Below, in pieces: positions 9,010-29,416 of a DNA stretch of 32,619 nucleotides. The first letter of the stretch is position 1; each line of letters opens with the position of its first letter. This DNA comes from a virus: the IMG/VR virus record IMGVR_UViG_3300020477_000009. One strand, 5' to 3'. The translations under genes were made by a program, and so were the position numbers. The notes below the pieces were generated by a model, which did not search any database, was not told where the DNA came from, and saw only the letters and a list, made by a program, of their open reading frames with translations.

Positions 9010-10977
9010 ATGGAAGAAATCATTGAAGAAGCCGAAGAAAAGGAAGAAGAGGAAACTGAAGATTTAGAAATCGAAGTAGAGTTGGAATCTGATTCTGAGG
9101 AACAGCAAACTGAGGATGAACAGCAAACTGAGGATGAACGAAGTTTTGCTGATAAGAAGCAATTTCGTTCTGCTGCTATTCGCAATGAATATATAGACAC
9201 CGAGAACAGGCGTGTTCGTATAGCACTTACGAGTGAGCAACCAGTAAGTCGTTCCTTTGGTTTAGAAATATTAGATCATTCCGAAGATTCGATTGATACG
9301 TCATTTATTGGTCAAGGTAGAAGTCCACTTTTATTAGACCATGATATGACTCGTCAAATAGGGGTGGTCGAAAACTATTTCATTGATAAAGATGCGAAGA
9401 GAACTATCGCAGAAGTGCGTTTCGGAAGAAGCGAACTTGCTGATGAAATTTTTAATGATGTGCAAGATGGCATACGTCAAAATGTCTCAGTCGGGTACAA
9501 CATAACAAGCATGGAAAGAGATTCATCTTTTGATGAACCTGCTTATCGAGTGGCTTTCCAACCATTAGAAGCATCCATAGTAAGCGTTCCAGCAGATCAA
9601 AGTCAGAATGTGGGAATCGCAAGAAGTGATGATGCAGCTAAAGAATTGCCAGAAATAGAAGTAGAGGTAATAAAAGCCGAAGCTGAGAGTTCTGGTGTAA
9701 TAATTAAAAATAACAACATTGGAAAAACAATGGAACAAAAAGAAGAAATAAACGTTGAAGAAGTGAAAGCTACAACTGTTTCAGAAACACAAAAAAGAAT
9801 CGCAAAAGAAAATGATGAGATTCTTGAATTGGGTGCGAGACATCAACAGCAAGAACTTTCGAGACAAGCAATTAAAGATGGAACTGATCTTGAGACATTC
9901 AGAGGACAACTGCTTAACACTATACCTTCTGGACAACCTTTGGAAACTGCCGAAATAGGTTTGACTGAAAAAGAATCCAGAGACTTTAGTATTTTAAAGG
10001 CCGTTTATGCTATGTCTAACCCTACTAATCGTAAGGCACAAGAAGACGCTAAATTTGAATTTGAGGCCTCTCAGGCAGCAAAAGAAAAATACGGAAGAAA
10101 TTCCGAAGGTCTTACTTTACCAAGTGAAGTAATGGGTACATGGACCAGGGACATTAACACAACAGACGATGCAGGCGGCATCGGAGAAGATTTCAGAAGA
10201 GGAGACTTCATCAATGCACTAAGAGATGCGTCTGGTGTTATTAGAGCAGGGGCAACTATATTCCCTGATCTAGTAGATAACGTCAAGATTCCTAAACAAA
10301 CTGGCGTATCAACTGCAACCTGGATTGCAACCGAAGGTGGTGCCGTGACAGAATCAGAACTTACTTTAGGTTCAGTCACGATGTCTCCAAATACCATATC
10401 TGCGTACACAGATATAACTAACAAGATGCTTGCTAATTCCTCTCTATCAATAGAGACATTAGTAAGAAATGATCTTGCTGCTGGTATCGGTAAAGTAGTG
10501 GATACGGGTGCTATGACGGGTTCTGGAAGTTCTGGTCAACCGACAGGAATAAACTCTGCAACTGGCGTTAATAGTGTCACATTAGATACAGCTTCAACCC
10601 CAACTTGGGCCGAAGCAGTAGAAATGGAATCATTGGTTCTAGCTGATAACGTACCATTTAACAGACCTGGTTATTTAACTAACTCAACTGTAGTAGGAAA
10701 CCTAAAAACTACAGCGAAAGCTAGTAATACAGCAGTCTTTATTATGGACGGAGATGGTAGAGTCAACGGACATCCTGTGACTATCAGTAATGCTGTAGCG
10801 AGTGGTTATATTTACTTTGGAATGTGGTCTGATTTATTGATTGGGTTTTTCGGCTCGATTGATATTTTAACGGATCCATATACGGCCGCTACGAACAACT
10901 TAACTAGAATTAGGGCTACCCAATTCTGTGATGTTGCTGTTAGACATGGACAATCGTTCACCAAGGCAACAGCTTAA
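9010..10977 (+). CDS. Single-ORF fusion (655 aa): acidic N-terminus, HK97-type (S78) prohead protease, coiled-coil scaffold-like linker, HK97-fold major capsid protein
   Basis: Protease part: RIALTSEQPVSRSFGLEILDH...SPLLLDHD...NVSVGYN...PLEASIVSVPAD (His and Ser motifs of the HK97 gp4 type). Middle part: a charged, heptad-like stretch (MEQKEEINVEEVKA...ILELGARHQQQELSRQAIKDG). C-terminal part: ...GGIGEDFRRGDFINALRDASGV...TESELTLGSVTMSPNTISAY..., typical of HK97-family capsid proteins. Confidence 0.8.
   Translation: MEEIIEEAEEKEEEETEDLEIEVELESDSEEQQTEDEQQTEDERSFADKKQFRSAAIRNEYIDTENRRVRIALTSEQPVSRSFGLEILDHSEDSIDTSFIGQGRSPLLLDHDMTRQIGVVENYFIDKDAKRTIAEVRFGRSELADEIFNDVQDGIRQNVSVGYNITSMERDSSFDEPAYRVAFQPLEASIVSVPADQSQNVGIARSDDAAKELPEIEVEVIKAEAESSGVIIKNNNIGKTMEQKEEINVEEVKATTVSETQKRIAKENDEILELGARHQQQELSRQAIKDGTDLETFRGQLLNTIPSGQPLETAEIGLTEKESRDFSILKAVYAMSNPTNRKAQEDAKFEFEASQAAKEKYGRNSEGLTLPSEVMGTWTRDINTTDDAGGIGEDFRRGDFINALRDASGVIRAGATIFPDLVDNVKIPKQTGVSTATWIATEGGAVTESELTLGSVTMSPNTISAYTDITNKMLANSSLSIETLVRNDLAAGIGKVVDTGAMTGSGSSGQPTGINSATGVNSVTLDTASTPTWAEAVEMESLVLADNVPFNRPGYLTNSTVVGNLKTTAKASNTAVFIMDGDGRVNGHPVTISNAVASGYIYFGMWSDLLIGFFGSIDILTDPYTAATNNLTRIRATQFCDVAVRHGQSFTKATA
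9100..9135 (+). repeat. Perfect 2 x 18-bp tandem repeat (gaacagcaaactgaggat) encoding EQQTED twice in the acidic N-terminus
   Basis: Read directly: 9100-9117 equals 9118-9135. Confidence 0.9.
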
Positions 10978-20400: not shown

Positions 20401-20801
20401 TATCTTCTACAACGGATGATCCTGCTAGTGGTGGCGCAACATGGAGTGATTGGTCTGAATTTACTATAGGAAACTATTATGGTAGGGGTTTTAAATTTAA
20501 ACTAAAGGTAAATGTAGGAGATTCTTCCCATCAAATTAATGTTTCTCAATTACAAGCGCAAGCAGAGGTTTATTATAGATTCGAGTCTGAGGGAGTCACC
20601 ACAGATGCTTCGGGTTCTGCTTTAACTTTTGATTCATCTTTTAGAGCAGCCCCACAAATTAATATCACAGCGCAAGATCTGGCTACGGGTGATTATTACA
20701 CTATTACGAGTCCATCAGCAACAGGATTCACTTTGAAATTTTTTAACTCAAGTGGAACGGGTGTTTCTCGTTCTGCTTATTATATAGCAAGGGGATATTG
20801 A
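17469..20801 (+). CDS. Central tail fibre / host specificity protein, lambda gpJ / RcGTA g15-like, with three FN3-like domains (1110 aa from ATG 17469)
   Basis: TAATG overlap with the previous gene. Gly/Ala-rich hydrophobic N-terminus as in g15-type proteins. NPALCIRDYLTN..YG is typical of J-like proteins. Three FN3-like repeats lie at about nt 19107-20030 (MSWTPPE...YDVAYKK; LTWSAI...YEIQYKL; LSWEETTD...FEIRHS). Confidence 0.8.
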   Translation: MGGALAKAFVWIAATIGQAVMVFGAGVKTAAVIGMIVTTAVFVAAGSALMGRLVRTPDIGLAQQGSIILSNSPSNTAPIPVIYGSRRVGGTRYFVGTSNGFENGQMTNKNDYLHMIIGLGEGPVSEITAVYLNNVEAWPNKDNRFVHSNPNGNPVVYIEPHLGEADQEASAELVHIANNNILAYEPEPGTIPGIGIPIPGSSPFSQPFEWTEDHRLRGVAYLYVRLHFDQEIFASGVPNITADIKGRPVKDTRQLVNGVVGTAITRYSNNPALCIRDYLTNTIYGRAISEDLIDDTSFEAAANYCDEEVTFEYVEDGFGKSATQKRYTLNGVVDTSESSLNIVNKMLTACRGSLVFSGGKYKLVLDKAETAALTFDESNVMGDYEITLAGKDTLANRVEASFFNPENEWQADLAYEENTPGREVYDNGLLLEKKIELPFTANRIMAQYIARQNLSASRNNIILSFKTTQEGLLAEIGDVIYVKLEAPGWDTLNSNAGKKFRVIQMEIEATDEIKITAIEYSDVVYQLYPPAYRSSLGTALPHLNVVLPPTDVTASETLFFSSPKVINRVSMSWTPPEVAYARSYDVAYKKLNDTEFTAIATTTAKQYTFDNLKPGTYTFNVRAKNNAGFTSAYSQTTLVVKGVTSLPAVNPPAITGVVESLVSSTLGSGVKAKARLTWSAIANSEWEDIGVNIESYEIQYKLTSEATNYESPGSSTGTYFDFFDITPGNYNIRVRAINDAGVKSNYAETTTEIVALTDPPANVSNFYMRADGVEAHLSWEETTDLDVKVGGTFEIRHSVATSGATWIASTPIGDAVPGSSNGVTMPLLVGTYLIKAVDSTSHKSDSATTIVNTISPSVLQKRTYQTVTDTAFAGTKTNMVVSDGKLELEADTLIDDMTTLMDVWGEFDSIGGVDLEGTYEFSDKIDLTLAGGATLSGGVTFTTESLNDYLDMRTTNFDSWADFDYNTIFDDVVTTLYVSSTTDDPASGGATWSDWSEFTIGNYYGRGFKFKLKVNVGDSSHQINVSQLQAQAEVYYRFESEGVTTDASGSALTFDSSFRAAPQINITAQDLATGDYYTITSPSATGFTLKFFNSSGTGVSRSAYYIARGY

Positions 20802-20830
20802 CAAAGGGATGATGGCACTTATTGTTTTTA
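20798..20830 (+). promoter_or_regulatory. Copy 2 of the conserved 33-nt element TTGACA-N8-ATGGCACTTATTGTTTTTA
   Basis: TTGACA at 20798-20803 overlaps the J-like stop codon. TATTGT at 20820-20825 follows a 16-nt spacer. The element lies in the 54-bp gap before the tail-fibre gene. Confidence 0.55.
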
Positions 20831-20855
20831 AATCTAATATTAAAAGGTATATTTA

Positions 20856-22478
20856 ATGGCACAACACGATTACGTCATAGCAAATGCAAATGGGGCCACA
20901 GTTAGAGCAGATATAAATAATGTTCTACTTGCCATATCTTCTACTAACTCTGGTACTTCTGAACCTTCTACCACTTACGCTTATATGTTGTGGTTAGACA
21001 GCGACAATAATCTATTAAAATTAAGAAATGCAGCCAATGATGGCTGGATTACTTTGGGATTATCAATTACTGCGAGTAATACAGTAGATATTAATGGTGG
21101 TGCTATTGATGGAACACCGATAGGTGCTAGTTCTACATCAACTGGTGCTTTTACAACAATTACAGCGAGTTCTACTATATCTGGTACTTCTATAACAGCT
21201 TCTACTTCCCTCTTAACACCTTTAATCGAATATACGGATGGTGATGATGCTATAACGATAGCCGATGGTGGTGGAGTGACTATTGCTGATTTAACGGCCA
21301 CAACAGCCGATATAAATGCTGGTTCTATAGATAACGCTACAGTTGGATCTAGTACAGCTAATACGGGTGCATTTACTACTTTATCGGCTTCAGGGGCCAC
21401 CGATTTAAACAGTACATTAGCAATAAGTGGTAATGTATCAATGGATGGTTCAGCGAATGAATTAAGATTTTATGAAGGCGCAAATTATGTAGGATTTGAA
21501 GCACCTGCTTTAACTGGTGATCAGATATGGGTGTTGCCTACAGCAGATGGAAGCGCAGACCAGGTATTAAAAACAGATGGTTCAGGAAACCTTGGTTGGG
21601 CTACAGCAGGTGGTGGGGGTGCTTCTGATATTGATGATTTAAGTGATTGCTTAGTTGAAAATAATTCTATGTGGTTAGGAAATGATCCTTCTAGCACAAC
21701 CAGTACAGCGAGTTATAACGTGGCAGTTGGGATAACGGCATTGGATAGCATCACTACAGCAGATAACACTACTGCGATTGGTTATAATGCAGGAGAAACT
21801 TGGACAACTAATGGTAATAATGTAGCACTAGGTTATAATGCTGGTGAAACAACAGGAACAACTTGTACTGATGGGGTTTGGATTGGTGCAAATGTTGGTA
21901 GTACAGAAGCTATTGATGGTGGTAAAGCAGGACAAGTAGTTATTGGTGCTTCAGCACAAGTTGGCAATCACGAAAACACAGTAGCTATAGGAAAGTCTTG
22001 CCCTGGTCAGGGAAATAACACAGTCACTTTTGGTAAGAGTGCAAGTTCCAAAGTATCTATAAATTGGGATTCTGGCACGGCTTGGTCGTATCCTTCAGAT
22101 GAAAGAATGAAAGAAAATATAGCCGATATGCCAACTTCAGTAGGTTTATCTTTTATTAATACTTTAAAACCAAGAACTTTTACATGGAGAAAGGTAGAAG
22201 ACTACGATGAGTCGCTTACAAGTTTAGGAGGAACAATGAAAATACCTGATGATACATCTAAAAAATCAGATGGTACACAATATGGTTTTGTTGCTCAAGA
22301 AGTTAAAACAGCTATGGAAGATGCAGGTATTACGCCTGATGCCGATGGTGGTGGTTATGGTTTTTGGACTCAAGCATCGGTAGGAACGCAGCAAGGCGTA
22401 GCCAAAGAAGATTTAATACCTTCATTAGTGAAGGCAATTCAAGAGTTATCAGCAAAAATTACAGCATTAGAAAGTTAA
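20856..22478 (+). CDS. Tail fibre with a C-terminal intramolecular chaperone (Peptidase S74) domain (540 aa)
   Basis: Common tail-fibre N-terminus (ANGATVRADINNVLLAISSTNSG...LWLDSDNNLLKLRNAANDGWITLG). Repeated IDGTPIGASS..TGAFTT modules. C-terminal SDERMKENI (from nt 22095)...QYGFVAQEV...LIPSLVKAIQELSAKITALE matches the S74 auto-cleaving chaperone signature. Confidence 0.8.
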   Translation: MAQHDYVIANANGATVRADINNVLLAISSTNSGTSEPSTTYAYMLWLDSDNNLLKLRNAANDGWITLGLSITASNTVDINGGAIDGTPIGASSTSTGAFTTITASSTISGTSITASTSLLTPLIEYTDGDDAITIADGGGVTIADLTATTADINAGSIDNATVGSSTANTGAFTTLSASGATDLNSTLAISGNVSMDGSANELRFYEGANYVGFEAPALTGDQIWVLPTADGSADQVLKTDGSGNLGWATAGGGGASDIDDLSDCLVENNSMWLGNDPSSTTSTASYNVAVGITALDSITTADNTTAIGYNAGETWTTNGNNVALGYNAGETTGTTCTDGVWIGANVGSTEAIDGGKAGQVVIGASAQVGNHENTVAIGKSCPGQGNNTVTFGKSASSKVSINWDSGTAWSYPSDERMKENIADMPTSVGLSFINTLKPRTFTWRKVEDYDESLTSLGGTMKIPDDTSKKSDGTQYGFVAQEVKTAMEDAGITPDADGGGYGFWTQASVGTQQGVAKEDLIPSLVKAIQELSAKITALES

Positions 22479-22501
22479 TATAAATAATTTAGGAGAGAAG
22501 A

Positions 22502-22765
22502 ATGGATGATAAAGTTAGTTTTAATATTGAATTACCGAATGGTGATGGAATAAAAAAAATAAATTCAATGGAGTTAACAGATAAACAATACTCAGTTGCA
22601 ACACAACTACAGAAATTGCAAGAAAACGTACAACGTTTAGCAAATGCAGTTGCAGAGCTTAATATGAAACAAGATCATTTTCGTTTAAAGCAAAAAGAGT
22701 TGATAGATCTGTTAGAAGAAGATGGGACAGATAGCAGAAATAGACACAAGACTAAAAAGCCATGA
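22502..22765 (+). CDS. Hypothetical coiled-coil protein (87 aa), first gene of the envelope cassette
   Basis: AGGAGAG lies upstream of the ATG. Heptad-like QLQKLQENVQRLANAVAELNMKQDHFRLKQKELIDLL. Confidence 0.65.
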   Translation: MDDKVSFNIELPNGDGIKKINSMELTDKQYSVATQLQKLQENVQRLANAVAELNMKQDHFRLKQKELIDLLEEDGTDSRNRHKTKKP

Positions 22766-22916
22766 GGCTGAGTGCCAACAACGTTGGCGAGAAAATTATA
22801 GACGTTTGGAGTCTATAGAAACACAATTAACCACCCTTAATTCACAAATTAGAATATCCCTGGTGTTCCTGGTAGTCACCCTGGGTAGTTTTTTCTTTGT
22901 CTCGCTTGCTCTTTGA
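22722..22916 (+). CDS. Tail-anchored membrane protein (64 aa): coiled coil plus a single C-terminal TM helix
   Basis: IAEIDTRLKSHEAECQQRWRENYRRLESIETQLTTLNSQI followed by ISLVFLVVTLGSFFFVSLAL. It overlaps the previous ORF by 44 nt, and there is no alternative in-frame ATG. Confidence 0.55.
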   Translation: MGQIAEIDTRLKSHEAECQQRWRENYRRLESIETQLTTLNSQIRISLVFLVVTLGSFFFVSLAL

Positions 22917-23932
22917 TGATAAAGAAAAAATTATTATTATTAGCTTTGGGATTGGTATTTTTTAATTCAGCTTATAGTGAACAAACAGGAGATTGTACTG
23001 CTGGCACAGATAATTGTGAGCAAAACAGTCTAAATACCAGCAATAATACAACTACAAACAACACTAATAATAATATATCGAGTGGAGGGCTAACCAACCA
23101 GAATACAAATATTAATACCTCTAATAATACGTCTAATAGCACCTCTAATAGCACCTCTAATAGCACAACAAACAATACTTCCGTATCAACAAATAATAAT
23201 ATAAATCAAAATTCGTCTTCGGTTAACACAGTTGCCACTACTACAAGCGTGGCAACAAACAATTCTACAGTTAGTTCAACAACCACTTCTGACGTCACGC
23301 AGAATGTGAATAGTGTATCTACATCTAAAATAGAGAATCAAAGTTCATCAATAGCACAAAATACGAACATTAATCAAAGCACTAGTGAATCTAAGGTAGA
23401 GACAGAAAATAGGAATATTAATCAAACACAGGCAGAAAATAGGAATACGAATATTAATAAAAGCGATTCCACCCAAGTAATAAGGCAAGAAATAAAATCA
23501 AAAACACCAGTTGCTTCGGCAGTAGCCCCATCGGTTCTCTCGTATTCGCAAGACATTTGTATATCGGGAGTTTCGGGAGGATTTCAGAATCAGATTTTTG
23601 GTTTATCGGGTGGCGCAGGGGTAGTGGATGAAAACTGCGTTCTTTTGAAATTATCAAGAGCATTACATTCTCAAGGTATGAAAGTAGCTAGTATATCTAT
23701 ACTTTGCAGCCAAAAAGTAGTGTTTACTTCCATGATGCAAGCTGGCACTCCCTGTCCATATTTCGGCAAAGTAGGAGAGGAGGCCCGTAAGGCATGGGAA
23801 GAAAATAAGGAAGACAGACCAGATTATGAGGACTTAAAAGCAAATTATATTCGTAAATGTAAAGGAAAAAAGAACTCAAAGGGGATAAGAAAATCAAAGA
23901 GAACTTGTGCTAAAGAATTTCGCAATAGCTAG
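22916..23932 (+). CDS. Secreted Asn/Ser/Thr-rich protein with a Cys-containing C-terminal domain (338 aa from ATG 22916)
   Basis: TGATG overlap with the previous gene. Sec-type leader MIKKKLLLLALGLVFFNSAYS-EQ. About 190 aa of N/S/T low complexity. Then DICISGVSGGFQNQIFGLSGGAGVVDENCVLLKL...ILCSQ...GTPCPYFG. Confidence 0.75.
   Translation: MIKKKLLLLALGLVFFNSAYSEQTGDCTAGTDNCEQNSLNTSNNTTTNNTNNNISSGGLTNQNTNINTSNNTSNSTSNSTSNSTTNNTSVSTNNNINQNSSSVNTVATTTSVATNNSTVSSTTTSDVTQNVNSVSTSKIENQSSSIAQNTNINQSTSESKVETENRNINQTQAENRNTNINKSDSTQVIRQEIKSKTPVASAVAPSVLSYSQDICISGVSGGFQNQIFGLSGGAGVVDENCVLLKLSRALHSQGMKVASISILCSQKVVFTSMMQAGTPCPYFGKVGEEARKAWEENKEDRPDYEDLKANYIRKCKGKKNSKGIRKSKRTCAKEFRNS
23117..23164 (+). repeat. 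Four tandem 12-bp units (acctctaatagc; two perfect, two degenerate) encoding the TSNS repeats
   Basis: Read directly: 23117 acctctaataat, 23129 acgtctaatagc, 23141 acctctaatagc, 23153 acctctaatagc. Confidence 0.85.
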
Positions 23933-26066
23933 TCTTAGCTTTCTTTTTTGTAGTCTGTTGGGGGCTACTTATACTTATGAAGCCAATAAAAATCTATTTG
24001 ATTTAACGGGAGAATCAGGAACTACCAGCTTAAATTCTGGTGACGACAGCTTATCTTCTGCTTTTAATTTAGATTTTACTTTTGGTTTTTATGGAGAATC
24101 TTTTACTTCGGCTAGAATGGCCACGAATGGCTGTCTTCATTTTGGTTTGGGTACAGGAAGCATAAACTACAATAATTATTGTGGTGATTACACCCCAGAT
24201 CCACTTCCCCACACCACTTATACTTTATATCCCTTTTATACTGATTTAATAAGAGATAGTGATTCTAAAATGTTAGCTAAAAACTTCACAGATAAGGCAG
24301 TTTTTGGTTGGTATAACTTACGGGAATACAATCGTAGTGGTTCTGATAATAGTTTTGAGGTAGTTCTTTGGACTAATGATACTTATGAATTTAGATATGG
24401 AGAATTAGATATTATTAAGCATGATGTGTTAATTGGGGAACAGGGTAATTCTACAGAAAATTATACTTATGTTTATTTTGATGAATGTAGCACAGGAACT
24501 ACCAATTCGAGTAATTGCGTCAGTTATGATTGGAACTCAAGTAGTAATTCTTATAATACAGCACTAGAGGATGGAGGTTCTCTTGCCAATAACGAAGCGT
24601 GTTTAAATGATCCATTAAGCCATACTACTTGCCCCACTTATAACGATGCGCTGTTTGATTATGAGTGTGAAAGAGATTCCCAACATTCTCCGTCTTGCCC
24701 TGGATATAGCTTTCAAGATTCTGTAGCTTATTTTGATTCGTCAGATATTGATTATGGCTATGAAGAAGATTATTACTTAGAAGAATTATACTTAGCTGGT
24801 AGTTGTATGGACGATCCTTCTTATTGCTACGATGATCCTTATTATGGCATGGAATTTACCGATGCCGAATGGTACGAAATAGACTTAAATGAGTTTGGTC
24901 AAGAGCAAGTAGATGATTGGTACGGAACAGAAGTAGAATTTAATAACGAAGGGTACATGGAATGGGAATCTTCCCCGTTAGAGAGTTGGGAAGAGTTAGA
25001 TTATCAAATGGATTTATACGATAATTTTAATGAATTAAGTTATCATGGTGAACAACATATTGAAGTTTTTGGTGCAGAAGAACTAATAGATTTATATACT
25101 TTTGATACCATAATTAGAGAAGGATTAATTAATGAAGAAGAGAACTATACCGATATTGCAACGCTTGAAGAACTGGATGAATGGTTTGAAGAAGAAATGC
25201 AAGAACATTTTTCCGAAGAAGAAATGGTATCCCACGAAGAGGAATTTGAAGAAGATCCCCAGGAAGAACACCAAGAGGAGATATTCGAAGAAGAAGCCGT
25301 TGAAGAGATCTACGAAGAAATAGAAGAAAGAGTAGCCGAAGAAGAGATTGAAAGAGAAGAAGTAGAGGAAAAAAAGGGTGGAATTACCTCTCAGCAATTA
25401 AATGTGGTTGCTCAGACTATATTAGTTGCCAACAATAGTGTTAATAAAGGATCTTTTTCTAACACTTCTAACTTATCCTCGCAAAGTTCCGAGCAGTCCG
25501 ATAACACGAAGAAATCAACCAGTAGTAATATTAGTGGAATATCTACTAGTAGTTCTCCTAGTATTTCCGATCAAATACAAGCAGCCCAATTTCAAACTAA
25601 TACAGTTTTATCTATGAATGATACGGGGGCAGCAAGTGGCGTAAACAACCCATTAACCACCCTGCCTGGGGTAAGTACCAATTTGAGTGTTTCGGATGCT
25701 GGTGTGAAGGATATACAGGTTAAAATTGATGCTGCTGTATCTGGTACGAGTAATACTTCCGAAGCAGATACTATAGCTAATCAAATTATTGCTCAAAATA
25801 TAAAAGACCAACAAGAAGAACAACAATCCCTCCAAGAAGAAACGGGCAAATACGGGGATGAAACTTCTTTAATTGCTTATTTAGATTATGTGCCTGGTTT
25901 TGATGCTTACAGGAATGTTAGCATCCCTAAAGCCGATACCTGGTACGAATCAAAGACCATCTATGAAGATGTAAAAATAAAAGATAATGTTGAGGTTTTT
26001 TATTCTTTAGCATCAACAAGTTTCAATAAGTTGGATGAAATGCTAAAATCAGAACCCAGGTTATAA
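23907..26066 (+). CDS. Large secreted modular acidic protein (719 aa, GTG start)
   Basis: Modules in order: (1) hydrophobic leader LKNFAIASLSFLFCSLLGA; (2) an N-terminal domain with an NIDO-like pattern (FNLDFTFGFYGESFTSARMATNGCLHFG...LYPFYTDL...FGWYNLREY...NSFEVVLWTNDTYEFRYG); (3) a Cys/Tyr/Asp-rich part (CPTYNDA..C..D..HSPSCPGYS); (4) a Glu-rich block of about 80 aa (~nt 25135-25375); (5) a Ser-rich block (~25450-25570); (6) a C-terminal globular part. Confidence 0.75.
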   Translation: MLKNFAIASLSFLFCSLLGATYTYEANKNLFDLTGESGTTSLNSGDDSLSSAFNLDFTFGFYGESFTSARMATNGCLHFGLGTGSINYNNYCGDYTPDPLPHTTYTLYPFYTDLIRDSDSKMLAKNFTDKAVFGWYNLREYNRSGSDNSFEVVLWTNDTYEFRYGELDIIKHDVLIGEQGNSTENYTYVYFDECSTGTTNSSNCVSYDWNSSSNSYNTALEDGGSLANNEACLNDPLSHTTCPTYNDALFDYECERDSQHSPSCPGYSFQDSVAYFDSSDIDYGYEEDYYLEELYLAGSCMDDPSYCYDDPYYGMEFTDAEWYEIDLNEFGQEQVDDWYGTEVEFNNEGYMEWESSPLESWEELDYQMDLYDNFNELSYHGEQHIEVFGAEELIDLYTFDTIIREGLINEEENYTDIATLEELDEWFEEEMQEHFSEEEMVSHEEEFEEDPQEEHQEEIFEEEAVEEIYEEIEERVAEEEIEREEVEEKKGGITSQQLNVVAQTILVANNSVNKGSFSNTSNLSSQSSEQSDNTKKSTSSNISGISTSSSPSISDQIQAAQFQTNTVLSMNDTGAASGVNNPLTTLPGVSTNLSVSDAGVKDIQVKIDAAVSGTSNTSEADTIANQIIAQNIKDQQEEQQSLQEETGKYGDETSLIAYLDYVPGFDAYRNVSIPKADTWYESKTIYEDVKIKDNVEVFYSLASTSFNKLDEMLKSEPRL

Positions 26067-26068
26067 CT

Positions 26069-26434
26069 ATGGAATGGTTTGAAAACAAAACAACCCAAAT
26101 AATAGCTTTAGTGACTATCTTAGGAACTCTCGCTGGTTTTGGTTATCAAGCAAGTACTTATGTTAATAGACTGGAAAACCTGGAAAGCGCAATAAGTTCT
26201 GTTGGAGAAACAGAAAATGCTCAAAATATCATAGAAGAAAGATTTGCTGGTATAGAAACATCCGTAGATTATATTAATAAATCCATAGATGAAGGTATAG
26301 ATGTTTCGTTAAAATCTCATGCAGAGTCCATCAATTTATTAAGGTCCCAACTAGAGGGGTTATCCGTAGCAGTAAAAAATTTAGAGAAAGACGTTGAGAA
26401 ATTGGATAGTAATTCTAATCCATTGGCAAATTAA
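26069..26434 (+). CDS. N-terminally anchored coiled-coil membrane protein (121 aa); i-spanin-like topology
   Basis: TM segment IIALVTILGTLAGFGYQA near the N-terminus, followed by heptad-like sequence (NRLENLESAISS...LRSQLEGLSVAVKNLEKDVEKL). It lies immediately upstream of the holin. Confidence 0.65.
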   Translation: MEWFENKTTQIIALVTILGTLAGFGYQASTYVNRLENLESAISSVGETENAQNIIEERFAGIETSVDYINKSIDEGIDVSLKSHAESINLLRSQLEGLSVAVKNLEKDVEKLDSNSNPLAN

Positions 26435-26437
26435 TAT

Positions 26438-26914
26438 ATGAAGTTTAAATTGGTAAAAAATCTCGTTGGTAGTTTAGCACCCACCATAGGAAGTGCATTA
26501 GGTGGTCCGATTGGGGGAATGGCTGCTAATTTAGTGGCAGAGGTATTGGGGTGTGATCCCGAACCAAAAAAGATTGAACAGGCAATAAGTAATGCCACAC
26601 CAGAACAGCTTTTGCAATTAAAGAAAGCTGAGAAGGAATTTGAAGCAAAGATGAAAGAAATGGATGTTGATATATTTGCCCTGGAAACGGCAGACATTCA
26701 AGATGCTAGAAAAACTTTCTCAGGCGATTGGACGCCAAAACTTTTAGGTACTATCACTTTGTTTGGTTTTTTTGGTTATATATTTATGATTTCAATTTAT
26801 CCATTACCCGATGCAAGCGATGATATTGTTATGCTAATTATTGGTTCTCTAACTGGTATAGCAACAGCAGTTATTAGTTTTTATTTTGGATCTAGCCACA
26901 AAGACACAAAATAG
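26438..26914 (+). CDS. Holin of the 3-TM gene-transfer-agent type (158 aa)
   Basis: The N-terminal Gly-rich amphipathic part, LLQLKKAEKEFEAKMKEMDVDIFALETADIQDARK, and the following hydrophobic helices match my memory of the GTA_holin_3TM family layout. It is adjacent to the lysozyme gene. Confidence 0.7.
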   Translation: MKFKLVKNLVGSLAPTIGSALGGPIGGMAANLVAEVLGCDPEPKKIEQAISNATPEQLLQLKKAEKEFEAKMKEMDVDIFALETADIQDARKTFSGDWTPKLLGTITLFGFFGYIFMISIYPLPDASDDIVMLIIGSLTGIATAVISFYFGSSHKDTK

Positions 26915-26981
26915 CATGACAGAAGCCATACTTTTTTTTTAATTTTAATTTTAATGATTATATTTATAGTGAGGAAATGAA

Positions 26982-27092
26982 ATGGATATATTTATTTTTC
27001 TTTTTGGAATGGTGATTGGCATAATTATTTATTCAATCTTTTTTCCTGTCATAGATGAATTTTTTGATTCTGTAAAAGATAAATTCAAATAA
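26982..27092 (+). CDS. Unlisted 36-aa single-TM micro-protein between holin and lysozyme (candidate lysis accessory)
   Basis: My translation: MDIFIFLFGMVIGIIIYSIFFPVIDEFFDSVKDKFK. GAGGA (26971-26975) lies 6 nt upstream of the ATG. The stop is 1 nt before the lysozyme ATG. Confidence 0.5.
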   Translation: MDIFIFLFGMVIGIIIYSIFFPVIDEFFDSVKDKFK

Positions 27093-27093
27093 T

Positions 27094-27537
27094 ATGAAAG
27101 AGGATTTAAAGGATCATCTTATTAAATTTGAAGGTTTAGTAAATAAACCTTATGAATGTACGAGTGGAAAGCTGAGTATAGGGGTGGGGAGAAATTTAGA
27201 AGATAATGGAATTACTACCGATGAAGCACTATTTCTTCTTGATAACGACATAAACAACGTACTCACAGAATTAAAAGCGCAATTCGTTTGGTTTGAATCA
27301 GCACCCGAAAACGCTAAGCTAGTATTATCCGATATGTGTTTTAACCTTGGTTTGCCTACGCTTTTAGCATTTAAAAAAATGTTATTGGCATTTGCAGAAC
27401 AAGATTGGGACGAAGCAGCAAAGCAAATTTTAGATTCAAAATATGCCAAACAAGTTGGTAGAAGGGCAATCTATAATGCTTCGCTGATAGAAGCTATCAT
27501 GGATGATAAATGGGTGAACAAAAGCGAAAGAACATAG
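27094..27537 (+). CDS. Endolysin, T4-type (GH24) lysozyme (147 aa), with no signal or SAR sequence
   Basis: FEGLVNKPYECTSGKLSIGVGRNL fits the catalytic E-8aa-(D/C)-5aa-(T/S) triad of the GH24 lysozyme family. The N-terminus is hydrophilic. Confidence 0.85.
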   Translation: MKEDLKDHLIKFEGLVNKPYECTSGKLSIGVGRNLEDNGITTDEALFLLDNDINNVLTELKAQFVWFESAPENAKLVLSDMCFNLGLPTLLAFKKMLLAFAEQDWDEAAKQILDSKYAKQVGRRAIYNASLIEAIMDDKWVNKSERT

Positions 27538-27959
27538 AAAACCATAACTCTCGCCTGGGTGCTTTGGGTGAATCTTATGTGACTACTGTACTTTTAGAGT
27601 GGTGTGATTTTGTTCTTGTAGCCAACCACACTACACCTTACGATTTAATTTTAGATCACAACAATAGACTTTATAAAGTACAGGTCAAGACAGTTAATCA
27701 ATCAAAGACTAAGAGTGGATTACGTTATCGCTTTCATGCTATAAGACCACAAAGATCTGAACAATATTATAAGTCTAAAAGCGATATTTTTGCTCTAGTG
27801 TTTTATCCAGAAAAGACTTGTTTATTTAGACCGAATACGGGCAATCAACGTCATTATAGTTTTTCTAAAGCACCCACTAAAGAAGAAGAATTTGATTCCT
27901 TACAACAAACCTTACAAGAATTACACAATGCCCCTACATTAAAACCCATAGATGATTAA
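27510..27959 (+). CDS. Small PD-(D/E)XK nuclease (149 aa), of the type annotated as group I intron-associated / Hjc-like endonuclease
   Basis: GALGESYVTTVLLEWCDFVLVANHTTPYDLILDHNNRLYKVQVKT contains the E...D...(Q)xK arrangement. It overlaps the lysozyme gene by 28 nt. Confidence 0.6.
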   Translation: MGEQKRKNIENHNSRLGALGESYVTTVLLEWCDFVLVANHTTPYDLILDHNNRLYKVQVKTVNQSKTKSGLRYRFHAIRPQRSEQYYKSKSDIFALVFYPEKTCLFRPNTGNQRHYSFSKAPTKEEEFDSLQQTLQELHNAPTLKPIDD

Positions 27960-27992
27960 TTGACTTTAACAGATTGGCACTTAGTCTAAATG
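27960..27992 (+). promoter_or_regulatory. Copy 3 (degenerate) of the conserved element: TTGACT-N8-TTGGCACTTAGTCTAAATG
   Basis: It has the same architecture and spacing as copies 1 and 2, and TGGCACTTA is identical. It starts 1 nt after the nuclease stop codon and faces a 244-bp region with no listed + strand ORF. Confidence 0.45.
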
Positions 27993-27998
27993 GTATGG

Positions 27999-28035
27999 GG
28001 GGGCAAGTTTCTCTCCTATAAAACCACTTGCCCCC
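27999..28035. terminator. GC-rich hairpin in the convergent intergenic region (candidate bidirectional terminator or structured RNA)
   Basis: gggggcaagt (27999-28008) pairs perfectly with acttgccccc (28026-28035), with a 17-nt loop. T-rich tract at 28072-28090 on the + strand. No clean U-run directly abuts the stem. Confidence 0.5.
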
Positions 28036-28203
28036 ATCCTTGCGCATTCTAATGTTCTAGCTTTGTATAGTTTTATTTTTTATTCTTCTTAAATCTTCTT
28101 CTTGACCTTGCTTATTTTTGTTGTTATTATTTTCCATACGATTATTTGGGGGCCGAAGATGTAATGTCTTTGGCTTTCCTAATAATCTGCGTTAAACACA
28201 AGA

Positions 28204-28455
28204 CTACCGATAATGTCTATGTCTATACCATAAGTCTTCATTTCTAATTGAACGCAATCCCACACTATATAACCCGTCTTTTTGTTTCATTACAACAGGT
28301 GCGCCACCTATTCTATAGATGTATTGCCTAAGTCCTTCTGCCGTTTGAAAAGTTAAGCCCTCTATTCGGTGATTGATTAATAGATTTTTAGTATAAGTAG
28401 CGTATTTATGTTCTTTTTTTGGCAAACCTTCTTTTATTTTTATTTCTTTAGTCAT
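28204..28455 (-). CDS. Hypothetical protein (83 aa), last gene of the leftward operon
   Basis: The ATG overlaps the upstream stop (ATGACTAA). Same-strand packing. No motif recognised. Confidence 0.6.
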   Translation of the reverse strand: MTKEIKIKEGLPKKEHKYATYTKNLLINHRIEGLTFQTAEGLRQYIYRIGGAPVVMKQKDGLYSVGLRSIRNEDLWYRHRHYR

Positions 28456-29416
28456 AATTCACTTTCCTTATTTTTAAAGTTTTTTGTCTAATACTATAGG
28501 ACTCTTTTGCAGGAATGACTCTCTCTTCCTTCGCTGAAAAATGTCTAGTAGGCCAAGTCACTTCGTATTCGGTCTTATCGTCTTGATAATAACCATATTC
28601 GCTATCTTCAAGCATAGCCATTAGATTAGCTGTAGCTTCCTTCTTGCGCTTCTCCCATTTCTTTAGTTTGTCCGTTGATAGTTCAATTAGATCTATTTCG
28701 TCTTTGGCAGCATCTTTAAGTTTAACTGGCTTAGAGTCTTCATTGGTCTTACCCCATACAGTTAATGCTTCATCAGGACTAATGGGTGGATAATAATCTT
28801 CCTCTTGGATGCGTCTATCAAAGTCTTTTACAAGTTCGTGAATTGATTTTACGATAACTTCGTTGCGATGATAGATGAATATCTTAAAAGTAGTGGATTG
28901 ATACAATACACATAAAACGCCCCATTGTGCGCCTTTTATATCCATTAAACCCTGTAATTGTAAAGGACCTCGCCATTGTGGGGGTTCTTCTTCGGGGAAA
29001 TCCCTAGTGACTTTACATTCCAATACAACTTCACCAGACATTTCAGCTATATTAGAACCCATTATATAAACCCCTTTATCTGGTTCGTGGTTAACTCTTA
29101 ATTTCTCTCCTGCAAAGGCAATAGCATCCATAGAACCTTCTAGGGGAAGTTCAGGGTGTTTAATAGCATAATCAACATCAAAGTCTGGCATCACTAATCC
29201 TATAGTTTTTACAGCGTGATTTAATAAAGTGTTCTCAAGCAAATCTCCCATAAACATCTGAGGGTTTTGTTCTCCCATAACATCCTCCCCATTTTTTGCT
29301 CTTATACACCTAGACAATACCATTGCTCTACTTGAATTTTCATAAGGCGATATGCCGAATATCCCAGGAAGTATCGAGCAGCTTGCCATATCGTTTCTTG
29401 TTTTTTTACCTACCAT
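28448..29416 (-). CDS. YqaJ-type (lambda Exo-like, PD-(D/E)XK) recombination exonuclease with an extra C-terminal region (322 aa from ATG 29416)
   Basis: SILPGIFGISPYENS..., MGDLLEN, GSMDAI and VVLECKVT follow the YqaJ pattern (S.i..ilG.spy.s / G..lE / s.Dg / lEiK). GGAGA lies 5 nt upstream of ATG 29416. The longer track start at 29443 lacks an RBS. Confidence 0.6.
   Translation of the reverse strand: MVGKKTRNDMASCSILPGIFGISPYENSSRAMVLSRCIRAKNGEDVMGEQNPQMFMGDLLENTLLNHAVKTIGLVMPDFDVDYAIKHPELPLEGSMDAIAFAGEKLRVNHEPDKGVYIMGSNIAEMSGEVVLECKVTRDFPEEEPPQWRGPLQLQGLMDIKGAQWGVLCVLYQSTTFKIFIYHRNEVIVKSIHELVKDFDRRIQEEDYYPPISPDEALTVWGKTNEDSKPVKLKDAAKDEIDLIELSTDKLKKWEKRKKEATANLMAMLEDSEYGYYQDDKTEYEVTWPTRHFSAKEERVIPAKESYSIRQKTLKIRKVNYD

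What the first reader, a model, noticed from the sequence alone, without database searches (positions are those of the whole stretch)
22502..26434. Five-gene envelope-targeted cassette of unknown function between the tail-fibre gene and the holin
Seen: five consecutive + strand ORFs, overlapping or nearly abutting, fill the 3.9 kb (about 12% of the genome) between the tail-fibre stop (22478) and the holin start (26438). Read by eye, their topologies are: (1) an 87-aa soluble coiled coil; (2) a 64-aa coiled coil with one C-terminal TM helix; (3) a 338-aa protein with a textbook Sec leader; (4) a 719-aa protein with a hydrophobic leader; (5) a 121-aa protein with an N-terminal TM anchor and then a coiled coil. 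Established: virion proteins of tailed phages fold in the cytoplasm and do not normally carry cleavable Sec leaders. The canonical Gram-negative lysis set is holin, endolysin and spanins. I recognise none of the five as a known phage family. Inference: the set looks like a co-expressed late module that places two anchored coiled-coil proteins in the inner membrane and exports two large proteins to the periplasm or cell surface. It could be an unconventional outer-membrane disruption (spanin-replacing) system, a superinfection-exclusion or receptor-masking system, or a secreted adhesin/matrix factor. This is my best candidate for an undescribed system in the window.
Basis: partly seen in the sequence, partly recalled or inferred. 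Interest (0 to 1): 0.8.

Follow-up and report, generated by a model that had tools for sequence, protein, structure and literature searches.

The report
Exported three-gene module in lysis cassettes
Three of the five genes form a conserved, uncharacterised set of exported and membrane-anchored proteins that thousands of marine phages, including cultured SAR11 and Roseobacter phages, usually carry next to their cell-bursting genes, which points to an undescribed step in how these viruses handle the host envelope.

Summary
The five ORFs and their topologies are real. The functional unit is three genes, not five.

- **The trio.** p3 (22916-23932) has a Sec leader, an Asn-rich linker and a disulfide-type helical domain. 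p4 (23907-26066) has a Sec leader, an adhesin-like beta domain, an acidic linker and a conserved C-terminal domain. p5 (26069-26434) has an N-terminal TM helix, a coiled coil and a C-terminal NPL motif.
- **Conservation.** The order p3>p4>p5 holds in about 100 fetched loci. These include sipho-, podo- and myovirus genomes: HTVC202P, HTVC023P, HTVC115P, Mosig, CRP-207 and CRP-810.
- **Family size.** p4 and p5 each have more than 2,300 protein clusters. p3 has 1,864 clusters at 50% identity.
- **No known relatives.** No Pfam, NCBIfam, PDB or Foldseek relative of known function was found.
- **Lysis linkage.** A holin, endolysin or spanin lies within 3 kb in 33 of 47 loci with enough flank. Holin-like genes are sometimes interleaved within the trio.
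- **Not a simple spanin substitute.** Canonical i-/o-spanin pairs sit beside the trio in 20 loci. This window has none.
- **The other two genes.** p2 is a loosely linked XhlA-like lysis accessory. p1 is an orphan.

Best guess, at about 0.35: an inner-membrane-anchored periplasmic complex that assists envelope disruption at lysis. The function is unproven.

The parts
22502..22765 (+). p1: 87-aa soluble coiled-coil ORF. An orphan, not part of the conserved module.
   Evidence: ORF with an AGGAG Shine-Dalgarno sequence and no hydrophobic segment. No homologue in about 145 related loci. Only sub-threshold Pfam hits.
22722..22916 (+). p2: 64-aa XhlA-like small membrane protein with an N-terminal coiled coil carrying the motif HE..C..R[WY] and a C-terminal TM helix. 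A lysis-cassette accessory that is only loosely linked to the trio.
   Evidence: TM helix at aa 41-64. Pfam XhlA E=0.026, below the family cut-off. Homologues in about 20 loci, placed before p3, next to a holin-like gene, or between p5/holin and the lysozyme. Mosig has a protein of the same design right after p5.
22916..23932 (+). p3: exported protein. It has a Sec leader (aa 1-22), an Asn/Ser/Thr-rich linker (about aa 37-190, 23021-23482) and a conserved four-Cys domain with a basic two-Cys tail (about aa 200-339, 23510-23929).
   Evidence: Leader and Cys positions. phrog_20531 3.6e-14. 12 phage records by tblastn. 1,864 clusters at 50% identity. AF2 gives six helices at pLDDT about 90 for the last 100 residues, while the Gly-rich Cys loop is unmodelled. 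No PDB fold match. N-x-N alternation in the linker exceeds shuffles.
23907..26066 (+). p4: exported 719-aa protein. It has a leader (aa 1-20), an N-terminal beta-sandwich of NIDO/RemA-N type (aa 22-191, 23970-24479), a Cys-rich segment (aa 194-307), an acidic region (about aa 310-495), a Ser-rich disordered region, and a conserved C-terminal domain with a terminal helix (aa about 640-719, 25824-26063).
   Evidence: More than 2,313 homologues, none with a Pfam domain. Profile hit to the RemA N-terminus, 8gl6_D, 8.1e-9. NIDO E=0.0066, sub-threshold. AF2 models beta strands 22-191 at pLDDT 70-88 and the rest poorly. The C-terminal motif is shared with divergent middle genes of other lineages.
26069..26434 (+). 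p5: 121-aa bitopic protein with a conserved N-terminal TM helix (MEWFENKTTQIIALVTILGTLAGFGY), a periplasmic coiled coil and the C-terminal motif NPLAN.
   Evidence: Sequence. 2,409 homologues. NPL lies within the last 9 residues in 77 of 79 distinct homologues, and 76 of 79 have a TM helix. The motif is kept in roseophages, Mosig and HTVC115P. Only a weak hit to phrog_739 Rz-like spanin, E=0.029.
26438..26914 (+). Putative holin (158 aa) with two C-terminal TM helices. It starts 3 nt after the p5 stop.
   Evidence: phrog_1544 2e-27, function unknown. TM helices at 102-124 and 128-151. The same family lies beside the trio in other loci. Its architecture resembles GTA_holin_3TM, but there was no Pfam hit.
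26982..27092 (+). 36-aa single-TM ORF between the holin and the endolysin.
   Evidence: ORF. Called as a gene by JGI. Function unknown.
27094..27537 (+). Soluble endolysin of the T4-lysozyme type.
   Evidence: PF00959 2.2e-9 and phrog_7 2.7e-17. No N-terminal hydrophobic segment.

Best explanation
p3, p4 and p5 form one co-inherited, late-expressed periplasmic complex that belongs functionally to the lysis cassette.

**Shown**
- p5 has the sequence of an N-in/C-out inner-membrane anchor with a periplasmic coiled coil and a conserved C-terminal NPL tail.
- p3 and p4 carry Sec-type leaders and conserved cysteines typical of periplasmic proteins.
- In some lineages p3 also has a C-terminal TM anchor.
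- The three genes travel together between unrelated phage backbones and usually sit beside, or interleaved with, holin, endolysin or spanin genes.

**Inferred**
- The conserved C-terminal domain and terminal helix of p4 dock on the p5 coiled coil and/or the p3 helical domain.
- The long linker lets the lineage-variable, lectin/adhesin-like N-terminal domain of p4 reach an outer envelope component, such as the outer membrane, its attachment to peptidoglycan, or a surface glycan layer.
- Once the holin and endolysin have acted, this inner-membrane-to-outer-envelope tether helps to break or detach that outer layer so that virions escape.

It works like a spanin-type trans-envelope device, but it is not a member of the spanin families and can act alongside them.
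For: - **Co-occurrence.** The order p3>p4>p5 is invariant in about 100 loci. These include cultured sipho-like, podo- and myovirus genomes.
- **Proximity to lysis genes.** A holin, endolysin or spanin lies within 3 kb in 33 of 47 loci with at least 3 kb of flank on both sides, usually within 1 kb.
- **Typical orders.** Lysozyme-holin-p3-p4-p5. Holin-p3-p4-p5-XhlA-like in Mosig. p3-p4-p5-i-spanin-o-spanin-lysozyme. p5-holin-lysozyme in the window.
- **Interleaving.** Holin-like genes sit between p4 and p5 in some lineages.
- **p5 architecture.** It has the i-spanin design: TM helix plus coiled coil, 103-218 aa.
- **No spanin here.** The window has no lipobox ORF on the + strand and hence no o- or u-spanin there. 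The window's endolysin is soluble. About 15% of phages are reported to lack spanins (bioRxiv 10.1101/515445).
- **Export.** Leaders and conserved Cys support export of p3 and p4.
- **p4 design.** Its N-domain changes between lineages (NIDO/RemA-like, CBM_4_9-like, Cys-rich) while its C-terminal motif is kept.
Against: - Canonical i-/o-spanin pairs coexist with the trio in 20 loci. The trio is therefore not needed as the sole outer-membrane disruptor there.
- No lipoprotein or beta-barrel feature links any partner to the outer membrane.
- No enzymatic domain was found.
- In HTVC202P the trio lies before the terminase, about 20 kb from the M15 endolysin. 14 of 47 loci show no recognised lysis gene within 3 kb.
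- p5 is encoded on the opposite strand in one lineage.
- No physical interaction was tested, because no multimer prediction was available.
- The loci are phylogenetically related, so the 33/47 count overstates the number of independent observations.
Confidence: 0.35

Rival explanations
1. Lysis-timing control. The trio is a periplasmic sensor or antiholin system, analogous to T4 RI acting on the periplasmic domain of holin T. It would delay or synchronise holin triggering, for example in response to superinfection.
For: - The trio is close to holin genes and sometimes interleaved with them. p5 abuts the holin in the window and in L117/L118.
- It coexists with complete holin-endolysin-spanin sets, which fits a regulator better than a redundant disruptor.
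- p3 has a strongly basic tail, and an EF-hand membrane protein lies next to p5 in some lineages.
Against: - Three proteins totalling about 1,180 aa (about 11% of this genome) is a large cost for a regulator. Known antiholins are small.
- There is no homology to RI/RIII or other antiholins.
- The variable lectin-like N-domain of p4 is not explained.
- The trio is far from any lysis gene in HTVC202P.
Confidence: 0.18
2. Superinfection exclusion or receptor masking. The periplasmic or surface complex blocks DNA entry or hides the receptor, protecting the infected cell or preventing loss of progeny on cell debris.
For: - The proteins are exported. The N-terminal adhesin/lectin-like domain of p4 is swapped between lineages, as expected for something that tracks a host-variable structure.
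- The module moves between unrelated phages like a moron.
Against: - It is placed in late or lysis operons rather than early or lysogeny regions.
- No outer-membrane targeting signal was found.
- It is present in strictly lytic phages, where late exclusion gives little benefit.
- No homology to known exclusion proteins was found in Pfam, PHROGs or NCBIfam. PADLOC was not searched.
Confidence: 0.12
3. Adhesin or matrix proteins released at lysis. p3, with its Asn-ladder or amyloid-prone linker, and p4, with its adhesin domain, are stored in the periplasm and freed at lysis. They then aggregate cells, debris or virions, in the manner of the 'sibling capture' idea proposed for pelagiphage curli modules.
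For: - The p3 linker shows N-x-N alternation that is conserved as a pattern in very distant homologues.
- The p4 N-domain resembles that of the gliding adhesin RemA and NIDO.
- Long low-complexity linkers are typical of extracellular proteins.
- There is a precedent: exported curli modules are transferred between pelagiphage families (PMC9599517).
Against: - The p5 membrane anchor, and the C-terminal TM anchor of p3 in several lineages, tie the complex to the inner membrane.
- There are no CsgA/F/G hits.
- There is no route across the outer membrane before lysis.
Confidence: 0.1
4. Virion or assembly proteins whose hydrophobic N-termini are not signal peptides, such as fibre accessories encoded after the tail-fibre gene.
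For: In this window the genes follow the tail-fibre gene directly. Large proteins with beta-rich N-domains are common among fibres.
Against: - The same trio occurs in sipho-, podo- and myovirus backbones and at different genome positions, including before the terminase.
- Leaders and Cys pairs are conserved.
- Chromosomal p3 homologues with leaders exist in Caulobacterales.
- There are no hits to structural PHROGs.
Confidence: 0.04

Closest known systems
Two-component spanins (lambda Rz/Rz1; T4 PseT.3/PseT.2, PF26831)
   Same: The genes lie in the lysis cassette. One partner (p5) is a type II inner-membrane protein with a periplasmic coiled coil of similar size. The partners are exported and cysteine-bearing. 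The presumed reach is across the periplasm.
   Different: - There are three partners, not two.
- No outer-membrane lipoprotein was found: the window has no lipobox ORF on the + strand.
- p3 and p4 are 5-15 times larger than an o-spanin.
- There is no significant sequence match (phrog_739 E=0.029).
- The trio coexists with bona fide spanin pairs in 20 loci.
T4 lysis-inhibition system (holin T, periplasmic antiholin RI)
   Same: Sec-exported periplasmic proteins are genetically tied to lysis. A bitopic membrane protein has a periplasmic domain.
   Different: There is no homology. The proteins are much larger. The N-terminal domain is lectin-like and variable. The T4 r genes are not in one cassette with t.
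XhlA (PF10779) of Bacillus PBSX-type lysis modules (applies to p2 only)
   Same: A small protein with an N-terminal coiled coil and a C-terminal TM helix, located in lysis cassettes.
   Different: The Pfam score (15.1 bits) is far below the cut-off (34.7). The host here is Gram-negative. Its role is unknown.
Pelagiphage curli (T8SS) modules (Wittmers et al. 2022, PMC9599517)
   Same: A multi-gene module of exported proteins is carried by SAR11 phages and exchanged between phage families. The low-complexity segments are Asn/Gln-rich.
   Different: There are no CsgG, CsgF or curlin-repeat hits. The trio is present in cultured HTVC023P, whereas that paper states its newly found AMGs, which include the T8SS, are not present in the cultivated HTVC023P-type phages.
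TonB/TolA-type inner-membrane-anchored, periplasm-spanning proteins
   Same: An inner-membrane anchor, a long charged or low-complexity linker and a distal binding domain. One p4-like protein is even annotated 'tonB' in MW202481.
   Different: Here the anchor (p5) and the linker plus binding domain (p4) are separate polypeptides. There is no TonB_C or TolA domain and no ExbB/TolQ partner.
RemA N-terminal domain / NIDO (applies to the p4 N-domain only)
   Same: A profile of p4 matches residues 8-170 of Flavobacterium RemA (8gl6_D, 8.1e-9). The motif DD..S....L.F.F.FYG..Y....ATNG.L.F is shared.
   Different: RemA is a T9SS-secreted gliding adhesin. Nothing else in p4 resembles it. The NIDO hit is sub-threshold.

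Membership tests
Two-component spanin | i-spanin: N-terminal TM helix (type II) followed by a periplasmic coiled-coil domain | tested here: met
   p5 has a TM helix at about aa 10-27 followed by coiled coil. 76 of 79 distinct homologues have the TM helix. This is architecture only.
Two-component spanin | o-spanin: small outer-membrane lipoprotein with a lipobox Cys, whose gene is embedded in, overlapping or adjacent to the i-spanin gene | tested here: not met
   The lipobox scan found no candidate on the + strand of the window. It readily found o-spanins (..LMAGC / ..ASGC.. PP.[FY]HPPLP) in other loci. p3 and p4 have SPase I-type leaders.
Two-component spanin | Sequence membership in a known spanin family (Rz-like PHROG, PF26831 and similar) | tested here: not met
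   The best match is phrog_739 at E=0.029. No Pfam or NCBIfam hit was found. This Pfam copy gave no PF26831 hit even for a known carrier, so that single model could not be tested.
Two-component spanin | Acts as the genome's outer-membrane disruptor (one spanin equivalent per phage) | tested here: not met
   The trio coexists with i-/o-spanin pairs in 20 loci.
XhlA (PF10779), for p2 | Pfam score at or above the gathering threshold | tested here: not met
   15.1 bits against a cut-off of 34.7, E=0.026. Topology and cassette position do match.
Curli / T8SS module of pelagiphages | CsgG pore, CsgF and curlin-repeat subunit | tested here: not met
   None of these families hit any trio protein or the scanned neighbours in Pfam.
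T4-type antiholin (RI) / lysis inhibition | A periplasmic protein that binds the periplasmic domain of the holin | not testable with these tools
   No homology was found. An interaction would need multimer modelling or experiment.
   No structural PHROG or Pfam hits. tblastn of p4 against 50,697 phage records found no match. Foldseek found nothing at E<=0.001 in the PDB.
Conserved p3-p4-p5 module (defined here) | Co-occurrence and fixed order of the three families in unrelated phage backbones | tested here: met
   After the first viral-contig scan, p3 was in 86 loci, p4 in 85 and p5 in 74. After all scans the counts were 140, 99 and 98. The trio was verified by eye in HTVC202P, HTVC023P, HTVC115P, Mosig, CRP-207 and CRP-810.

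The most novel reading that the evidence does not exclude
The trio is a previously unrecognised class of phage envelope machinery. It would be an inner-membrane-anchored, three-protein periplasm-spanning complex built from three families with no characterised relatives. It would carry out a step of host-cell exit, or control of exit, that the holin-endolysin-spanin paradigm does not cover. It is carried by the most abundant phages of the surface ocean, including SAR11 and Roseobacter phages of all three tailed morphotypes.
Probability: 0.3. Interest if true: 0.85.

Novelty: categorically new. Interest (0 to 1): 0.72.

Why it matters
SAR11 and Roseobacter phages are among the most numerous viruses on Earth, and their lysis of hosts drives a large share of marine carbon turnover. 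How they breach the host envelope is essentially unstudied, and many carry no recognisable spanin. A three-gene exported module that takes up about 11% of a 32-kb genome must pay its way. It is kept in thousands of protein clusters and exchanged between sipho-, podo- and myoviruses. If it acts in lysis, it adds a new component class to the holin-endolysin-spanin scheme. If it does not, it is a new kind of phage manipulation of the periplasm. Cultured host-phage pairs exist (HTVC023P, HTVC202P, HTVC115P, Mosig, CRP-207, CRP-810), so the question can be tested directly. The solitary chromosomal p3 homologues in Caulobacterales and Hyphomonadaceae also point to an uncharacterised cellular periplasmic domain family.

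Tried and rejected
- **Nucleotide search** of 20500-28000 against 50,697 phage records returned only a 77-bp fibre match. There is no close cultured relative.
- **tblastn of p4** against the phage records found no match.
- **Pfam, PHROGs and NCBIfam** on all five proteins and many homologues returned only coiled-coil or low-complexity noise. The exceptions were phrog_20531 (function unknown) and sub-threshold XhlA, NIDO and CBM_4_9 hits.
- **PDB sequence profiles.** p3 gave nothing at E<=10. p4 matched only the RemA N-terminus.
- **AF2 plus Foldseek.** The p3 domain is confidently modelled but has no PDB neighbour. BFVD returned only uncharacterised phage proteins. The whole-chain p4 model was too poor for a fold search (pLDDT 52.9).
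- **Curli/T8SS identity** was considered after reading PMC9599517 and rejected, because there are no Csg hits.
- **'Spanin replacement'** was rejected as the sole reading after finding coexisting spanin pairs.
- **Promoter and terminator scan** of 20500-28600 found counts no higher than in shuffled sequence. This gives no evidence for a separate transcription unit.
- **Fusions of the p3 domain to known domains** were sought among 1,864 representative proteins. The top 150 are all short stand-alone proteins.
- **Literature searches** for pelagiphage spanins or lysis and for HTVC023P lysis found no description of this module.
- **HTVC027P transcriptome.** The published time course (PMC12753301) could not be used, because HTVC027P did not appear among the p3 tblastn hits.

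Full report
**What the window is.** It is a circular permutation of a 32,642-bp JGI marine metagenome contig. It encodes a siphovirus-type late operon on the + strand: large terminase, portal, major head protein, tape measure, distal tail protein, J-like protein and a fibre with a Peptidase_S74 chaperone domain. Its tail module is 27-40% identical at protein level to that of Pelagibacter phage HTVC202P. No cultured phage is close at nucleotide level.

**Observation.** The five + strand ORFs are present exactly as described, and they overlap or abut.
- A hydropathy and composition script confirms no hydrophobic segment in p1 and a C-terminal TM helix in p2 (aa 41-64).
- p3 has a classical n-h-c leader (MMIKKKLLLLALGLVFFNSAYS|EQ). 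p4 has a hydrophobic leader. p5 has an N-terminal hydrophobic helix followed by coiled coil.
- Downstream lie a 158-aa protein with two C-terminal TM helices (phrog_1544, function unknown, a plausible holin), a 36-aa single-TM ORF, and a soluble T4-type lysozyme (PF00959).
- No promoter-like or terminator-like signal exceeds the shuffled expectation across 20500-28600. Nothing therefore separates these genes from the late transcript.

**The conserved unit is three genes.** p4 has more than 2,313 homologues (E down to 1e-233), none with a Pfam domain. A scan of IMG/VR returned 155 relatives, of which 80 loci were fetched. Jackhmmer over all ORFs of the fetched loci found p3 in 86 loci, p4 in 85, p5 in 74, p2 in 18 and p1 in none. 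The order is always p3>p4>p5. After adding further loci the counts were 140, 99 and 98. p5 alone has 2,409 clusters at 90% identity, and the window's exact p5 sequence occurs on 36 contigs. A profile of the p3 domain finds 1,864 clusters at 50% identity. The best 150 are all short stand-alone proteins.

**Cultured phages carry the trio.**
- HTVC202P gp24-26 and HTVC023P gp45, gp46 and gp48, followed by an M15 peptidase.
- HTVC115P gp54, gp53 and gp49, and the myovirus Mosig 00202-00200.
- Roseobacter phages CRP-810 gp53-51 and CRP-207 gp75-73. In these two records p5 is annotated 'lysozyme', and in CRP-810 p3 is annotated 'OmpA family'. No Pfam support was found for either label.

**Anatomy of p3.** It has a leader, then an Asn/Ser/Thr-rich linker of very variable length. 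The linker's N-x-N alternation exceeds shuffles, even in very distant homologues. Next comes the motif PP.SA.APS...SQD.C, a Gly-rich loop and then NCE.LKLS. After that lies a helical domain containing MGMKVA..S.LCQD.RVF.AM..AGTPCPY, with four conserved Cys. AF2 models the last 100 residues as six helices at pLDDT about 90, but not the Cys loop. There is no PDB neighbour and only uncharacterised phage proteins in BFVD. Some lineages end p3 with a C-terminal hydrophobic anchor.

**Anatomy of p4.** It has a leader and an N-terminal beta-sandwich whose profile matches the N-terminus of the Flavobacterium adhesin RemA (8gl6_D, 8.1e-9) and, weakly, NIDO. This is followed by a Cys-rich segment, a very acidic stretch (145 Asp+Glu in 719 aa), a Ser-rich disordered stretch and a conserved C-terminal domain ending in a helix. 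In other lineages the N-domain is different: CBM_4_9-like in HTVC202P gp25, Cys-rich in MW202481, and other types elsewhere. The C-terminal motif (..PGF..Y...IPD..Y...IY.....DN......M...QY) persists, and an HMM built from the window family detects it.

**Anatomy of p5.** It has a strikingly conserved TM helix, a coiled coil of 103-218 aa, no Cys, and NPL within the last nine residues in 77 of 79 distinct sequences.

**Genomic company.** Among 47 loci with at least 3 kb on both sides, 33 have a recognisable holin, endolysin or spanin within 3 kb, usually within 1 kb. For a 40-60 kb genome my rough expectation by chance is 10-20%. The loci are not phylogenetically independent, although at least six different arrangements occur.

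Arrangements seen:
- lysozyme-small-holin-small-p3-p4-p5 at the end of the late operon of PolA/RNR podovirus-like contigs
- holin-p3-p4-p5-XhlA-like in Mosig
- XhlA-like-holin-like-SNase-p3-p4-p5-i-spanin-o-spanin-lysozyme
- p5-EF-hand/TM protein-GTA_holin_3TM
- holin-like genes inserted between p4 and p5
- the window's fibre-p1-p2-p3-p4-p5-holin-36aa-lysozyme

Counter-examples exist. In HTVC202P the trio sits just before the terminase, far from the M15 endolysin.

**Relation to spanins.** A lipobox scan found no candidate o- or u-spanin on the + strand of the window. It readily found o-spanins with the motif PP.[FY]HPPLP, preceded by an i-spanin, in other trio-bearing loci. Profile searches put such pairs in 20 loci, in at least three arrangements. 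The trio is therefore not simply a spanin substitute. It may still take over that role where spanins are missing, as here. About 15% of phages are reported to lack spanins (10.1101/515445).

**Cellular relatives.** A genome scan with the p3 profile gave 48 loci. Most are phage-like contigs mis-binned into MAGs, and they again show p3, a gene of about 2 kb and p5. Thirteen loci from Caulobacterales, Hyphomonadaceae, Micropepsaceae and related MAGs, including a complete Hyphomonadaceae chromosome (CP096134.1), carry a solitary p3-like gene with a leader, an N-x-N-rich linker and the Cys domain. It sits in conserved housekeeping synteny next to genes that resemble a crotonyl-CoA reductase-like oxidoreductase and methylmalonyl-CoA mutase (both read by eye), with no p4 or p5. 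The p3 domain is thus an uncharacterised periplasmic or secreted domain with cellular members.

**Interpretation.** The shown facts are export and membrane anchoring, strict three-gene co-inheritance across unrelated phages, and a strong but not universal tie to lysis genes. The rest is inference. I favour (about 0.35) an inner-membrane-anchored complex spanning the periplasm. In this model p5 is the anchor and p4 docks by its conserved C-terminus and uses a long linker to place a lineage-specific binding domain on an outer envelope component. The complex would assist disruption or detachment of that layer once the holin and endolysin have acted. The rivals are a lysis-timing sensor or antiholin (0.18), superinfection exclusion or receptor masking (0.12), adhesin or matrix proteins released at lysis (0.10) and virion or assembly proteins (0.04). 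The remainder is unassigned.

**p2 and p1.** p2 is best seen as a separate XhlA-like lysis accessory. Its topology and cassette position match XhlA, but its Pfam score is below threshold. p1 has no support beyond its ORF.

**Novelty.** None of the three families has a Pfam, NCBIfam or PDB relative of known function. The literature searched does not describe the module. The only published pelagiphage exported module, the curli T8SS (PMC9599517), is different. I rate the trio as categorically new in kind, with the caveat that it may prove to be a distant functional variant of spanin-type machinery.

Noticed in passing
L014-L018, L015, L057, L077 (for example L016 5647-6015, minus strand): In one lineage the p5 gene is inverted. 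It converges on p4, with the two stop codons overlapping, so it would be transcribed with the opposite-strand operon. The protein sequence is fully conserved.
   Followed up: partly
L106, L109, L113, L115, L117, L118, L122 (for example L117 4091-6743): An expanded module: p3, a short p4 (about 300 aa) and three extra leader-bearing proteins lie before p5. X1 is about 165 aa with Cys near both ends. X2 is about 125 aa. X3 is about 135-147 aa, with a 'RAGDLDC...NC..LY..EL' loop that resembles the p3 Cys loop by eye, plus a coiled coil. None has a Pfam hit.
   Followed up: partly
L117 6752-7469; L112 5222-5569; CRP-207 gp72 (L092 3870-4226): A small protein with an N-terminal EF-hand (PF13202 2.3e-5) and two TM helices recurs next to p5. 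It is followed in L117 by a GTA_holin_3TM holin (PF11351 2.9e-24). In L112 it sits between p4 and p5. This may be a Ca2+-sensing lysis component.
   Followed up: partly
L115 9693-10400; L122 9524-10234: A class 3 lipase (PF01764 3.5e-23) is encoded directly after p5 in two loci. It is a possible membrane-lipid-degrading lysis enzyme.
   Followed up: no
L132-L144 (for example L142 5521-6414, Hyphomonadaceae chromosome CP096134.1): Solitary chromosomal homologues of the p3 Cys domain occur in housekeeping synteny, each with a leader and an N-x-N-rich linker. Their neighbours resemble a crotonyl-CoA reductase-like oxidoreductase and methylmalonyl-CoA mutase (read by eye). This is an uncharacterised cellular family.
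   Followed up: partly
window 26982-27092 (+): A 36-aa ORF with one TM helix (MDIFIFLFGMVIGIIIYSIFFPVIDEFFDSVKDKFK) lies between the putative holin and the lysozyme. JGI called it as a gene. Similar 37-aa TM ORFs occur in L007 and L095.
   Followed up: no
HTVC202P gp23 (L001 4414-4686); CRP-810 gp50; CRP-207 gp71; HTVC023P gp51; L108 8875-9165: Small, very basic proteins with the motifs 'PSAYANAY' or 'SAAYWA' recur immediately beside the trio in several unrelated phages. Their function is unknown.
   Followed up: no
CRP-810 gp51 and gp53; CRP-207 gp73 (L091, L092): The GenBank annotations 'lysozyme' (for the p5 homologues) and 'OmpA family protein' (for a p3 homologue) have no support from Pfam or NCBIfam. 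They look like mis-annotations.
   Followed up: yes
window 27510-27959 (+): A PD-(D/E)XK endonuclease (PF11645 3.2e-8) overlaps the 3' end of the lysozyme gene by 28 nt, at the end of the late operon.
   Followed up: no
window 9010-10977 (+): The 655-aa major head protein also matches a 'major head and protease' PHROG (phrog_4523, 2.5e-38) over aa 49-339. This suggests a fused protease or scaffold-capsid gene.
   Followed up: no
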